Below, piece after piece: positions 45,901-48,900 of a DNA stretch of 64,000 nucleotides (position 1 is its first letter; every line of letters starts with the position of its first letter). Position numbers: made by a program. Source of the DNA: Escherichia coli O127:H6 str. E2348/69. Its GTDB lineage: Bacteria > Pseudomonadota > Gammaproteobacteria > Enterobacterales > Enterobacteriaceae. Location of the stretch: the NCBI RefSeq assembly GCF_000026545.1, contig NC_011601.1. One strand, 5' to 3'.

Positions 45901-48900
45901 TAAATCAATGCCCAATTCTTTGCGACGTGCGTTCAGTTGTTCCCCCAAATGACGGGGAGTCTCAATGGTCAGGAGGGGGCGTGGTTGACTAATATTCGGC
46001 CCCTGAATAAGTTTCTTCTGCAACTCCTGGAGTTGGTCGCCGATCGCTTTCAACTCTTGAGCCAGATTTTGTGGTCCTGAGCAGATCATTAAAGAACCTT
46101 TCGATTGATAAAAGACAAAAACAAGATCATTTATGGTCAGATAAATTCGTTAAGTATCACAAATGAACCATTTTTCATTAATGGTTATAATTTAGCTCAT
46201 ATATAACTCATTGGCAAAGAAAAAGGTCAAAAAAGATACATAAATGATAGATAAAGCATAAAAAGGTCATATTTGACATGAGATCAGCATGAAAGCTGAT
46301 CTCATCGGGAGAGTTAAACAGCTGGCTTCTGCGGATTTTCATCCTGATCAACGGCAAAACAAGCTACCAGTTGACCGCCGTAGTCTTTTAGCTGCGGCTG
46401 CAACTGGGTGCAGGGGCCGAAGCGTCGACGACAGCGGGCGTTGAAGGCGCAGCCTGGCGGTGGATTCAGCGGGCTTGGCAGTTCACCGGTAAGTTTGATG
46501 CGTTCGCGACGATCGTCCGGGTTCAGGCGTGGTGTCGCGGAGAGCAGCGCCTGAGTGTACGGGTGGCGCGGGTTATTGAAGATTTGGTCCTTCGTCCCCT
46601 TCTCCACGCAGCGGCCCAGGTACATCACCATCACTTCATCAGCAATGTGCTCCACCACCGACAGATCGTGGGAGATAAAGACATAAGATAGCCCCAGTTC
46701 CTGCTGCAAATCCATCATCAGATTCAGCACCTGCGCACGCACTGAGACGTCCAGCGCGGAAACCGGCTCATCGGCAATCACCACATCCGGGTCGAGCATC
46801 AGACCTCGGGCAATGGCGATACGCTGACGCTGACCGCCGGAGAACATATGCGGATAGCGGTCATAATGCTCGGTTTTCAGGCCGACTTTCGCCATCATCG
46901 ACAGAGCTTTTTCCCGACGCTGTACTTTGCTTAAGCTGGTGTTGATCAGCAGCGGCTCTTCGAGAATCTGCCCAACTTTTTTACGCGGATTCAGCGAACC
47001 GTAAGGGTTCTGGAAGACAATCTGGATTTTCTGCCGACGTAGCTTCTGCGCTTGCGGATCGTGCTTAAGCAGATCCTGCCCCTGGTAATACAGTTCGCCG
47101 CCGGTGGGCGTTTCAATCATCGTCAGCAACCGACCGAGGGTCGATTTACCGCAGCCAGATTCACCTACTACTGCCAGCGTTTTGCCACGTTCAAGGTTAA
47201 ACGAAACGCCATCCAGCGCCTTCACCAGACGTTCCGGCGCGAACATGCCTTTCTTCACCGGATAATGTTTTTTCAGGTCGATAGCCTGCAACAGCGGTTG
47301 TTGCGAGGTGGCCTCATGCGTACTCATAGTGTCGGCCTCCCGGCATCATCAAGTGGGTAATGGCATTTGGACTGACGCCCGTCAGCGAGCATATTCAGCG
47401 CCGGTTCTTCAGCACGGCATTTATCAGTGGCGTAGGGGCAGCGCGGGTTAAGCAGGCAGCCGTTCGGGCGGTCGTACTTGCCGGGAACGACACCTGGCAA
47501 CGACGCCAGACGTTCTTTGTCCTGAGCAAATTCCGGCAGCGCACGCAGCAATGCCTGAGTATACGGGTGACGCGGCGCATGGAAGATAGCGTGCGCATCG
47601 CCCGTTTCTACTACCTGGCCTGCATACATCACGATAATTTTATGTGCCGCTTCCGCCACCAGCGCCAGGTCATGAGTGATCAACACCAGCGCCATGTTCT
47701 CTTTCTGCTGTAGCTCCAGCAGCAGTTCGATAATTTGCGCCTGAATGGTCACGTCCAGCGCAGTGGTCGGTTCATCGGCAATCAGCAGTTTTGGCCGACA
47801 GGCAATCGCCATGGCGATCATCACGCGCTGGCTCATGCCGCCGGAAAGCTGATGCGGGTAAACATCCAGACGCGATGCCGGATCGGGAATACCGACCAGA
47901 TTCAGCAGGTCAATCGCTCGCTGACGGCGGGTACTTTTGTTGCCGCCCTGATGCACCTTAATCGCTTCCATAATCTGGAAACCCACGGTGTAGCACGGGT
48001 TAAGGCTGGTCATCGGGTCCTGGAAGATCATTGCCACTTCGGCACCCACCAGGTTGCGGCGCTCTTTTTCTGAGATACGCTGCAAATCCTGACCGTTAAA
48101 CTCCAGCTTTTCCGCCATTACGCGGCCCGGATAATCAATCAGCCCCATAATTGCCAGCGAACTGACCGATTTACCAGAGCCGGACTCACCCACAATCCCG
48201 ACCACTTCGCCCTGTTTTACGCTGTAGCTGATGCGATCTACGGCGCGGAACGGTGCGCTTTCGTCGCCGAAATGCACCGATAATTTATCTACATTTAATA
48301 ACGCCATCTCGAACCTCTTACTGCTTCAGTTTGGGATCGAGCGCGTCACGCAGACCGTCACCCATCAGGTTAAATGCCAGCACCGTCAGCAGGATCGCCA
48401 GACCCGGGAAGGTCACGACCCACCAGGCGCTTTGCGCGAACTGCAACACATCAGAGAGCATGGTGCCCCACTCCGGCGTTGGCGGCTGCGCGCCCATGCC
48501 GAGGAAACCAAGAGCAGCCATATCGAGAATGGCGTTAGAGAAACCGAGCGACGCCTGAACAATCAGCGGCGCAAGGCAGTTCGGGAAGATGTTAATAAAC
48601 ATCTGGCGCATTGCCCCGGCACCCGCCACGCGAGACGCGGTGACGTAATCGCGGTTAACTTCCACCAGCACGGCGGCGCGGGTTAAGCGCACATAATGCG
48701 GCAGCGCAACGAAGGTTAGCGCCAGCGCGGCGTTACCAATCGACGGGCCGAAAATCGCCACCAGCACCAGTGCCAGCAGTAGACTTGGCAGCGCCAGCAT
48801 GATATCGACCACGCGCATGATGATGTTATCGACCAGACCGCCAAAGTAACCGGCGATCAGGCCGAGAATAACGCCCATAATCAGCGATAACACCACTACC

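What the first reader, a model, noticed from the sequence alone, without database searches (positions are those of the whole stretch)
46090..46276. AT-rich hipBST promoter region with candidate operator palindromes
The region upstream of hipB is strongly AT-rich and contains overlapping inverted repeats (AATGAACCAT...ATGGTT and AATGAA/TTCATT around 46162-46186). HipB-type repressors typically autoregulate through palindromic operators, but these do not obviously match the K-12 hipBA operator motif I remember (TATCC-N8-GGATA).
Basis: inference. Interest (0 to 1): 0.35.

Follow-up and report, generated by a model that had tools for sequence, protein, structure and literature searches.

The report
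Six phased HipB operators upstream of hipBST

Summary
The window is E. coli O127:H6 E2348/69. The region 46090-46313 is the 224-bp hipB-dppF intergenic segment. Baerentsen et al. 2023 fused this segment to lacZ and showed it is an active promoter. HipB was necessary and sufficient for repression, and HipT enhanced it. They did not map operators.

However, these repeats are barely above chance. They are not conserved outside E. coli, and one natural E. coli allele breaks them.

I compared 33 non-E. coli hipB upstream regions. This revealed a different 16-bp palindrome, (A/G)GnTCATATATGAnC(T/C). A matrix trained without any E. coli sequence finds exactly six sites in the window:
- 46083-98, 46124-39, 46154-69, 46194-209, 46224-39 and 46264-79;
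- centres at -1.5, -42.5, -72.5, -112.5, -142.5 and -182.5 from the hipB ATG;
- spacings of 41/30/40/30/40 bp.

Shuffles of the region give 0.03 such sites. The best sigma-70-like promoter, TTGCCA-17-TAAATT, brackets O4. O1 covers the ribosome-binding site and ATG.

The motif differs from the K-12 operator (TATCC-N8-GGATA) and the Legionella operator (TTACTG-N6-CAGTAA). My verdict is a known promoter with a new operator-array variant. It was found computationally and binding is untested.

The parts
46264..46279 (.). O6, the distal operator-like palindrome. Sense strand ATGTCAAATATGACCT; centre -182.5 from the hipB ATG. It abuts the hairpin after dppF.
   Evidence: PWM trained without E. coli sequences scores it 15.6 bits, the top hit in the 64-kb window. 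Clade-specific PWMs recover it. Column conservation.
46224..46239 (.). O5, sense strand GTATCTTTTTTGACCT; centre -142.5. This is the weakest site, with a degenerate left half.
   Evidence: 11.0 bits. The same position is occupied in 11 of 33 other promoters. Recovered by all clade PWMs.
46194..46209 (.). O4, sense strand GAGTTATATATGAGCT; centre -112.5. It fills the spacer between the predicted -35 and -10.
   Evidence: 14.0 bits, rising to 18.1 bits in the commonest E. coli allele. The position is occupied in 22 of 33 promoters.
46154..46169 (.). O3, sense strand GGTTCATTTGTGATAC; centre -72.5.
   Evidence: 12.2 bits. The position is occupied in 19 of 33 promoters.
46124..46139 (.). O2, sense strand TGACCATAAATGATCT; centre -42.5.
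   Evidence: 14.4 bits. The position is occupied in 19 of 33 promoters.
46083..46098 (.). O1, sense strand GGTTCTTTAATGATCT; centre -1.5. It overlaps the Shine-Dalgarno GG (46097-98) and the hipB ATG (46087-89).
   Evidence: 14.2 bits. The position is occupied in 22 of 33 promoters. Its conservation is partly confounded by the SD and start codon.
46212..46217 (-). Predicted -35 hexamer TTGCCA. It is TTGCTA in most E. coli alleles and TTGACA in Buttiauxella.
   Evidence: It belongs to the only promoter-like site and to the best sigma-70 score, 11.7 against 6.1 for the runner-up. The same position gives the top-scoring promoter in 6 Buttiauxella loci, and the columns are conserved.
46189..46194 (-). 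Predicted -10 hexamer TAAATT, 17 bp from the -35.
   Evidence: This is a prediction only; there is no transcription-start data.
46181..46183 (-). Predicted transcription start, about 7 nt after the -10, giving a leader of about 93 nt that carries O3, O2 and O1.
   Evidence: Inferred from the position of the -10 hexamer. Not measured.
46162..46186 (.). I judge them incidental. The left part belongs to O3 and the rest is O3-O4 spacer around the predicted start site.
   Evidence: No PWM hit of 4 bits or more is centred there.
46278..46305 (-). Perfect 11-bp stem with a 6-nt loop, between the dppF stop (46314-16) and O6. It may be a terminator or insulator for the co-oriented dpp operon.
   Evidence: I4. 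Fold of -20.8 kcal/mol, z = -5.3. It does not match the canonical terminator pattern.
45766..46089 (-). hipB, an Xre-type helix-turn-helix protein of 107 aa, the presumed binder of O1-O6.
   Evidence: Identical to PDB 7AB3/7AB4/7AB5 chain A. The recognition-helix region S-x-STLKRLF is invariant in 28 homologues.
44463..45781 (-). hipS (45470-45781) and hipT (about 44463-45470), the rest of the operon.
   Evidence: Homologues follow hipB in nearly all related loci.

Best explanation
Region 46083-46279 is the autoregulatory control region of the hipBST operon. It carries six copies of a 14-16 bp palindromic operator with consensus (A/G)G-n-T-C-A-T-A-T-A-T-G-A-n-C-(T/C), flanked by A-tracts on one side and T-tracts on the other. 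The sites are spaced 41/30/40/30/40 bp and run from the dppF-proximal hairpin down to the hipB start codon.

Each site is most likely bound by one HipB dimer, which is the core of the HipB2S2T2 complex. O4 lies exactly between the predicted -35 (TTGCCA) and -10 (TAAATT), so a bound HipB would exclude RNA polymerase. O3, O2 and O1 lie in the transcribed leader and could act as roadblocks; O1 sits over the SD and ATG. O5 and O6 would add cooperative anchoring. HipT strengthens repression, presumably through extra DNA-backbone contacts or contacts between neighbouring complexes.

Status of each step:
- Shown by others: promoter activity of this fragment, repression by HipB, enhancement by HipT, and the HipB dimer structure.
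- Shown here: the six sites, their conservation, their phasing and their statistics.
- Inferred: that HipB binds these sites, the promoter position, and the cooperative mechanism.
For: 1. Published genetics. The fragment 224 bp upstream of hipB plus 73 bp of hipB contains all six sites. It is an active promoter repressed by HipB alone and more tightly by HipB+HipT or HipBST (PMC10627512).
2. Motif discovery. Palindromic motif searches started from many random seeds on 33 non-E. coli hipB upstream regions all converge on one motif with about 140 sites.
3. Positions in other genera. Those sites cluster at -1, -41/42, -71/72, -111/113, -141/143 and -182/184 from the ATG. Of 107 adjacent site pairs, 93 are 29-31 or 39-42 bp apart, and this holds in Buttiauxella, other Enterobacterales, Pasteurellaceae and Algicola.
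4. Hits in the window. The matrix, trained without E. coli, gives exactly six hits of 10 bits or more, at the six conserved positions. These are 6 of the top 8 hits in 64 kb. Shuffles of the region give 0.030 hits, never more than 2 in 5000. The rest of the window has 5 hits against 4.7 expected.
5. Independent training sets. Matrices trained on each of three clades separately recover the same six sites.
6. Footprint-like conservation. O127 is 57-71% identical to other genera in the site cores but only 36% in the spacers. Column information is 1.32 against 0.71 bits (Mann-Whitney p = 9e-15).
7. Association with hipB. The HipB recognition-helix region is invariant across these taxa. The array accompanies hipB in different genomic contexts and also upstream of orphan hipB genes that lack hipST.
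8. Natural alleles. E. coli alleles keep all six sites at 11 bits or more.
9. Promoter. The best sigma-70-like site brackets O4, at the same position as in Buttiauxella.
Against: - There is no direct binding, footprint or transcription-start data for any site.
- None of the six O127 sites is a perfect palindrome. O1 and O5 have CT and O4 has TA where the consensus has the CA core, and O3 has a G in the AT-rich centre.
- O1's conservation is confounded by the SD, the ATG and codon 2.
- The predicted -10 is weak: TAAATT here and CATTTT in Buttiauxella.
- In other clades the best promoter-like site sits elsewhere in the array, around O3 or O2. The O4-bracketing model is therefore specific to E. 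coli and Buttiauxella and is unproven.
- Clade sampling is uneven, with 10 Buttiauxella loci.
- Some start-codon assignments in other loci are uncertain.
Confidence: 0.72

Rival explanations
1. The first reader's palindromes (AACCAT-N9-ATGGTT, AATGAA-N6-TTCATT at 46162-46186) are the HipB operator or operators.
For: They are real inverted repeats in the right region. AACCAT/ATGGTT is retained in the E. coli variant L001. The count of 6-bp inverted repeats is marginally high (P about 0.05).
Against: They are not conserved in any other genus, although the HipB recognition-helix region is invariant there. AATGAA/TTCATT is broken in L001. AACCAT is broken in allele L044 with no compensation. 68% of shuffles have at least one such repeat. 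The left arm is explained by O3.
Confidence: 0.05
2. The repeated motif is real, but a factor other than HipB recognises it, such as a host nucleoid protein (H-NS, Fis or IHF on AT-rich acquired DNA). Alternatively, it acts through intrinsic DNA curvature from the phased A/T tracts.
For: The region is extremely AT-rich and horizontally acquired. The sites are flanked by A and T tracts. No binding data exist.
Against: The motif has specific G/C positions (G2, C5, G12, C15) and dyad symmetry, which fits a dimeric helix-turn-helix protein. It follows hipB through unrelated hosts, from Enterobacterales to Pasteurellaceae and Algicola, and through different contexts. It is not enriched in other AT-rich parts of the window: 0 hits in 44 control windows. 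In K-12 hosts HipB alone represses the fragment.
Confidence: 0.08
3. The inverted repeats act at the RNA level, as a 5'-leader hairpin that affects mRNA stability or translation of hipB.
For: If the start is near 46182, the transcript would begin with AACCAUUAAUGAAAAAUGGUU, which folds as a 7-bp stem in the minimum-energy structure.
Against: The leader fold is no better than shuffles (z = -0.51; 58 of 200 shuffles fold as well). The hairpin is not conserved in other genera, and allele L044 breaks it.
Confidence: 0.04
4. The six-site pattern is only residual sequence homology, with shared ancestry of the promoter region and no operator function.
For: All loci descend from a common hipBST module, and Buttiauxella is over-represented.
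Against: Spacers have diverged to about 36% identity, roughly the level expected between unrelated AT-rich sequences (my judgement), while site cores stay at 57-71%. The six sites within one promoter resemble each other, which descent does not explain. Independent clades give the same matrix and spacing.
Confidence: 0.03

Closest known systems
E. coli K-12 hipBA promoter with four HipB operators O1-O4 (TATCC-N8-GGATA)
   Same: It is an Xre-type HipB dimer repressor of its own kinase-toxin operon. It uses multiple palindromic operators in an array upstream of hipB, with alternating short and long centre-to-centre spacing. In MG1655 I measured 28/39/28 bp (centres -30.5, -58.5, -97.5, -125.5), against 30 and 40-41 bp here. 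In both systems the toxin partner strengthens repression.
   Different: The half-site sequence and geometry differ: 5-bp arms with an 8-bp spacer (18 bp) against GGTCA-N4-TGACC (14 bp core). There are four sites against six. The K-12 motif is absent here. In hipBST HipB is not the antitoxin; HipS is (PMC6581861, PMC10627512).
Legionella pneumophila hipBST operators O1-O3 (Lin et al. 2023, PMC10653801)
   Same: It is the same tripartite hipBST system. HipB alone binds the DNA and HipT joins the HipB-DNA complex. The sites are evenly spaced and the proximal one overlaps the predicted promoter. The 71-bp period (18-bp site plus 53-bp gap) equals the two-site period here (41+30 and 40+30).
   Different: The motif is TTACTG-N6-CAGTAA (sequence taken from the oligonucleotides) and is not found here. 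The authors themselves state it is absent upstream of hipBST in E. coli. There are three sites per 213 bp against six per 197 bp. Legionella binding was shown by EMSA; here it is only predicted.
14-bp operators of phage 434 repressor/Cro and similar Xre/Cro-family dimers (from my own knowledge, not tested here)
   Same: Short dyad-symmetric 14-bp sites with an AT-rich centre and conserved outer 4-5 bp, read by a helix-turn-helix dimer. Arrays of sites overlap the promoter elements.
   Different: The sequence is unrelated. 434 has three adjacent operators with about 20-bp spacing, not six sites at 30 and 40 bp.

Membership tests
Type II toxin-antitoxin autoregulatory promoter-operator region | Lies directly upstream of the first gene of the TA operon and contains its promoter | tested here: met
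   hipB starts at 46089 on the minus strand. The single strong sigma-70-like site is at 46217-46189. Promoter activity of exactly this 224-bp region is published.
Type II toxin-antitoxin autoregulatory promoter-operator region | Contains repeated dyad-symmetric sites suited to the operon's own helix-turn-helix protein | tested here: met
   Six palindromic sites against 0.03 expected by chance, conserved and phased.
Type II toxin-antitoxin autoregulatory promoter-operator region | The operon's DNA-binding protein physically binds those sites and represses transcription | not testable with these tools
   Repression by HipB at the level of the whole fragment is published. Site-level binding has not been tested anywhere I could search.
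K-12-type HipB operators | TATCC-N8-GGATA motif | tested here: not met
   No match with 2 or fewer mismatches between 46060 and 46330. The 15 matches elsewhere in the window are at chance level. As a positive control, four perfect sites are found upstream of MG1655 hipB.
Legionella-type HipBST operators | TTAC(T/C)G-N6-CAGTAA 18-nt motif | tested here: not met
   No match with 2 or fewer mismatches in the promoter region. This agrees with the authors' statement.
Legionella-type HipBST operators | Regular spacing of about 71 bp between operators | tested here: inconclusive
   Here every second site is 70-71 bp apart, but an extra site sits in each period. The resemblance may be coincidental.

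The most novel reading that the evidence does not exclude
The six sites are not independent operators. They would form three pairs, O1-O2, O3-O4 and O5-O6, each 40-41 bp apart, with 30 bp between pairs. Together they would scaffold a defined higher-order nucleoprotein made of several HipB2S2T2 hexamers. Contacts between neighbouring complexes would couple promoter occupancy to the activity or phosphorylation state of the HipT kinase. Those contacts could be HipT-HipT, as reported for HipA on the K-12 O1-O2 pair (from my memory of Schumacher 2015), or they could run through the unseen N-terminal helix of HipB (residues 1-35). The shared 70-71 bp period with Legionella, and the alternation of about 30 and 40 bp shared with K-12 (28/39), would then reflect a conserved architecture across the whole HipA/HipT kinase family despite unrelated operator sequences. 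SAXS already shows HipBST partly as a dimer of hexamers about 80 A apart.
Probability: 0.25. Interest if true: 0.6.

Novelty: new variant of a known kind. Interest (0 to 1): 0.4.

Why it matters
hipBST of E. coli O127 is the reference tripartite HipA-like kinase toxin system. Its structure and genetics are published, but its operators are not, and the only HipBST operators known (Legionella) were reported as absent here.

A concrete six-site map with coordinates, a consensus and a predicted promoter turns that gap into simple experiments: EMSA, footprinting and point mutants. It also gives a motif that recognises this HipB clade's promoters in Enterobacterales, Pasteurellaceae and beyond. The same promoter is present in 160 of 5426 complete E. 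coli genomes, including at least one O25b:H4-ST131 strain. Finally, the map suggests that operator spacing is more conserved than operator sequence in Hip systems.

This is an incremental advance in a well-understood class of regulation, not a new principle.

Tried and rejected
- Counting exact 4-bp-arm palindromes in the upstream set was swamped by poly-T/poly-A. It only hinted at TCAT-N2-ATGA and CATATG, so I replaced it with a seeded core listing and palindromic motif refinement.
- I mistyped an IUPAC pattern as 15 nt, with W6 where the core should be A-W4. It returned nothing and is uninformative.
They score below 4 bits with the trained matrix, so I did not count them.
- The long-range 10-nt perfect inverted repeat ATCATTTATG/CATAAATGAT (46126/46239) is explained by O2 resembling the -153 pseudo-site.
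- The direct repeat AAAAAGGTCA x2 is simply the left halves of O5 and O6 with their A-tract flanks.
- An RNA structure in the leader is not better than shuffles.
- I found no transcription-start data for E2348/69.
- Schumacher 2015 (PMC7502270) is not held. I therefore measured K-12 operator spacing directly from MG1655 sequence.
- The other five matrix hits of 10 bits or more in the window (for example 24960) are at chance frequency, so I do not treat them as a HipB regulon.
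Full report
IDENTITY OF THE LOCUS

The window is 100% identical to E. coli O127:H6 strain E2348/69 over 44400-46400. Three genes lie on the minus strand: hipB (45766-46089, 107 aa), hipS (45470-45781) and hipT (about 44463-45470). dppF ends upstream at 46314 on the same strand. HipB is identical to the chain solved in PDB 7AB3, 7AB4 and 7AB5. The finding's coordinates, 46090-46276, therefore lie within the 224-bp dppF-hipB intergenic region (46090-46313).

WHAT WAS ALREADY KNOWN

Vang Nielsen et al. 2019 (PMC6581861) defined hipBST and only speculated that HipB autoregulates it.

Baerentsen et al. [quoted passage not shown] They reported four things:
- The promoter is active.
- HipS or HipT alone has no effect.
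- Leaky hipBST or hipBT already represses, whereas hipB alone needs high expression.

Neither the paper nor its preprint mentions palindromes, inverted repeats or mapped operators.

Lin et al. 2023 (PMC10653801) mapped three HipB operators in Legionella by EMSA. They called these the first HipBST operators and stated that the motifs are absent upstream of the E. coli hipBST. No other paper in the searchable library describes E. coli HipBST operators. The identity of the operators is the open part.

CHECKING THE OBSERVATION

The region is 25.7% GC against 50.3% for the window, which puts it in the lowest 0.3% of 187-nt windows. The quoted repeats exist at the quoted positions.

Perfect 6-bp-arm inverted repeats with a spacer of 12 nt or less number 5, three of them overlapping. 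Dinucleotide-preserving shuffles give 1.5 +/- 1.6 (P about 0.05), and 68% of shuffles have at least one.

The repeats are not conserved:
- In an alignment with 10 Buttiauxella and 1 Pantoea promoter, the AACCAT arm (46181-86) is unrecognisable.
- The AATGAA/TTCATT pair is already broken in a second E. coli lineage, L001.
- Allele L044 carries 46184 G>T, which breaks AACCAT/ATGGTT without compensation.

FINDING THE CONSERVED SITES

HipB homologues from Superficieibacter, Enterobacter, Atlantibacter, Buttiauxella, Erwinia, Pantoea, Pectobacterium, Aeromonas, Brenneria and Pasteurellaceae are only about 50-60% identical overall. They have an invariant helix-turn-helix region, LELQT-x-S-x-STLKRLF-x-DP. 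They should therefore read the same DNA.

I fetched 39 genomic loci. Nearly all have hipS and hipT directly downstream. I extracted 260 nt upstream of each hipB. A recurring palindrome was visible by eye.

A palindrome-constrained iterative motif search, started from every 16-mer of eight random sequences and excluding both E. coli sequences, converged on the same solution from many unrelated seeds. The motif is (A/G)-G-n-T-C-A-T-A-T-A-T-G-A-n-C-(T/C). It has 141 sites in 33 promoters. A-rich sequence lies on the 5' side and T-rich sequence on the 3' side, so the symmetric element extends to about 20-22 bp.

The sites are not scattered. Their centres pile up at these positions relative to the ATG:

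| Centre | Sites |
|---|---|
| -1 | 22 |
| -41/-42 | 19 |
| -71/-72 | 19 |
| -111 to -113 | 22 |
| -141 to -143 | 11 |
| -182 to -184 | 11 |

Of 107 adjacent site pairs, 37 are 29-31 bp apart and 56 are 39-42 bp apart. This holds in every clade.

THE SIX SITES IN THE WINDOW

Scanning the 64-kb window with this matrix, which never saw E. coli sequence, gives six hits of 10 bits or more in the intergenic region, and no further hits there at 4 bits or more. Sequences are given on the hipB sense strand.

| Site | Coordinates | Sequence | Bits | Centre |
|---|---|---|---|---|
| O1 | 46083-46098 | GGTTCTTTAATGATCT | 14.2 | -1.5 |
| O2 | 46124-46139 | TGACCATAAATGATCT | 14.4 | -42.5 |
| O3 | 46154-46169 | GGTTCATTTGTGATAC | 12.2 | -72.5 |
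| O4 | 46194-46209 | GAGTTATATATGAGCT | 14.0 | -112.5 |
| O5 | 46224-46239 | GTATCTTTTTTGACCT | 11.0 | -142.5 |
| O6 | 46264-46279 | ATGTCAAATATGACCT | 15.6 | -182.5 |

The spacings are 41/30/40/30/40 bp, which is exactly the conserved register.

Statistics and robustness:
- These six are among the top eight hits of the whole window.
- 5000 dinucleotide shuffles of the region give a mean of 0.030 hits and never more than two.
- 44 other AT-rich control windows have no hits.
- The five hits elsewhere in the window match the 4.7 expected by chance.
- Matrices trained on Buttiauxella alone, on other Enterobacterales alone, or on Pasteurellaceae alone each recover the same six sites.
- O127 is 57-71% identical to the non-E. 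coli sequences in the site cores but 36% in the spacers. Mean column information is 1.32 against 0.71 bits (p = 9e-15).
- The two other E. coli alleles keep all six sites at 11 bits or more. The commonest allele raises O4 from 14.0 to 18.1 bits.

The array follows hipB into different genomic contexts. It lies next to dppF in E. coli, Superficieibacter, Enterobacter and Atlantibacter, but not in Buttiauxella, Pantoea, Pectobacterium, Erwinia or Pasteurellaceae. It also stands upstream of orphan hipB genes without hipST in Mannheimia. This ties the motif to HipB rather than to HipS, HipT or a host factor. A diverged plasmid-borne hipBST in Aliivibrio fischeri also shows TCA-W4-TGA sites 40 bp apart.

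The partner ATGGTT/AACCAT (46181-86) lies in the non-conserved O3-O4 spacer. No matrix hit is centred between O3 and O4.

PROMOTER

The simple consensus scan finds a single promoter-like site, TTGCCA (46217-46212), 17 bp, TAAATT (46194-46189), on the hipB strand. My weight-matrix scan gives it 11.7, against 6.1 for the runner-up. The same position (-10 hexamer at -104/-105) is the best-scoring site in six Buttiauxella promoters (TTGACA-17-CATTTT or CATCTT) and the second-best in L001. The -35 columns are conserved in the alignment.

O4 occupies the whole spacer. The predicted start is near 46182, which gives a leader of about 93 nt carrying O3, O2 and O1.

In other clades the best promoter-like site brackets O3 (Ursidibacter) or lies between O3 and O2 (Pantoea, Pectobacterium). 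What is conserved, then, is a promoter embedded somewhere in the array, not its exact position. All of this is prediction, and I found no transcription-start data.

MECHANISM

Shown by others: HipB represses this fragment, HipT enhances repression, and HipB is the dimeric core of a HipB2S2T2 hexamer.

Inferred here:
- One HipB dimer binds each site, with half-sites GGTCA and TGACC centred about 9 bp apart.
- Occupancy of O4 excludes RNA polymerase.
- O1-O3 downstream of the start may block elongation, and O1 covers the SD and ATG on the DNA.
- O5 and O6 add cooperative anchoring.
- The fixed 30 and 40-41 bp spacing implies protein-protein contacts between neighbouring complexes.

The last point is consistent with the HipT-dependent tightening of repression and with SAXS evidence for dimers of hexamers.

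COMPARISON WITH KNOWN SYSTEMS

K-12 hipBA has four perfect TATCC-N8-GGATA sites. I located them at centres -30.5, -58.5, -97.5 and -125.5, a spacing of 28/39/28 bp. That motif is absent here.

The Legionella operators, read from the published oligonucleotides, are TTACTGCTATAACAGTAA and two variants, with a 71-bp period. They are also absent here.

The O127-type array is thus a third operator type for HipB proteins. It has a shorter core of 14 bp and more copies (six). It shares the alternation of about 30 and 40 bp with K-12, and a 70-71 bp double period with Legionella. Whether that similarity in spacing is meaningful is untested.

OTHER OBSERVATIONS

- The hipBST module occupies what is a 29-bp yhjV-dppF gap in a K-12-like strain. 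Its right junction (about 46328/9) changes the DppF C-terminus from ...PQR* to ...PQKPAV*.
- A strong hairpin (46278-46305, z = -5.3) separates dppF from O6.
- The promoter is present in 160 of 5426 complete E. coli genomes, always on the chromosome next to dppF, including an O25b:H4-ST131 strain.

VERDICT

The interpretation as a HipB-regulated hipBST promoter is correct and already published. The proposed operator palindromes are most likely incidental. The region does contain a well-supported, conserved array of six phased operator-like palindromes that appears to be undescribed. This is a new variant of a known kind of regulatory region, of moderate interest, and directly testable.

Noticed in passing
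window 44447-46328 (junction about 46328/46329); locus L040 2465-2495: The hipBST module sits in what is only a 29-bp gap between convergent yhjV and dppF in a K-12-like strain. The right junction lies inside dppF and changes the DppF C-terminus from ...DENPQR* to ...DENPQKPAV*.
   Followed up: partly
window 46278-46305: A perfect 11-bp stem with a 6-nt loop lies between the dppF stop and O6 (fold z = -5.3). No U-tract follows it directly, so it is not a canonical terminator by the scan. Because dppABCDF and hipBST are co-oriented, it may insulate hipBST from dpp read-through.
   Followed up: partly
loci L002, L003, L006, L008 versus L004, L009-L025: hipBST lies immediately downstream of dppF in Superficieibacter, Enterobacter and Atlantibacter as well, which suggests a shared insertion site or an ancestral location. 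It is elsewhere in Buttiauxella, Pantoea, Pectobacterium, Erwinia and Pasteurellaceae.
   Followed up: partly
L024, L026 (hipB 2995-3318), L027: Mannheimia loci carry a hipB homologue with an upstream array of the same operator-like sites but no hipS or hipT by tblastn. In L026 the next gene is a convergent gene of 339 aa (not identified). These look like orphan, still self-regulated hipB genes.
   Followed up: partly
E. coli genomes; L043, L044: The promoter is present in 160 of 5426 complete E. coli genomes, always chromosomal, including an O25b:H4-ST131 strain. The commonest allele (97.2% identity, 147 genomes) has -35 TTGCTA instead of TTGCCA and a better O4 (18.1 against 14.0 bits).
   Followed up: partly
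L045 (Aliivibrio fischeri plasmid pCG103-32) 1370-1667: A diverged plasmid-borne hipBST, followed by a second HipA-domain gene, has TCA-W4-TGA sites 40 bp apart upstream of hipB, although its recognition helix is altered (SFSTVQRTL).
   Followed up: partly
window 44463-45482: The mechanical ORF for hipT starts at a TTG and gives 339 aa, whereas the literature gives 335 aa for HipT. The internal Met at residue 5 (MANCRILL...) fits the published length.
   Followed up: no
window 44447-44475: A GC-rich hairpin (GGGGCTGCT-CACA-GCAGCCCC) lies between the yhjV stop and the hipT stop. It is a likely bidirectional terminator at the left edge of the module. I saw it in the sequence printed and did not analyse it.
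   Followed up: no
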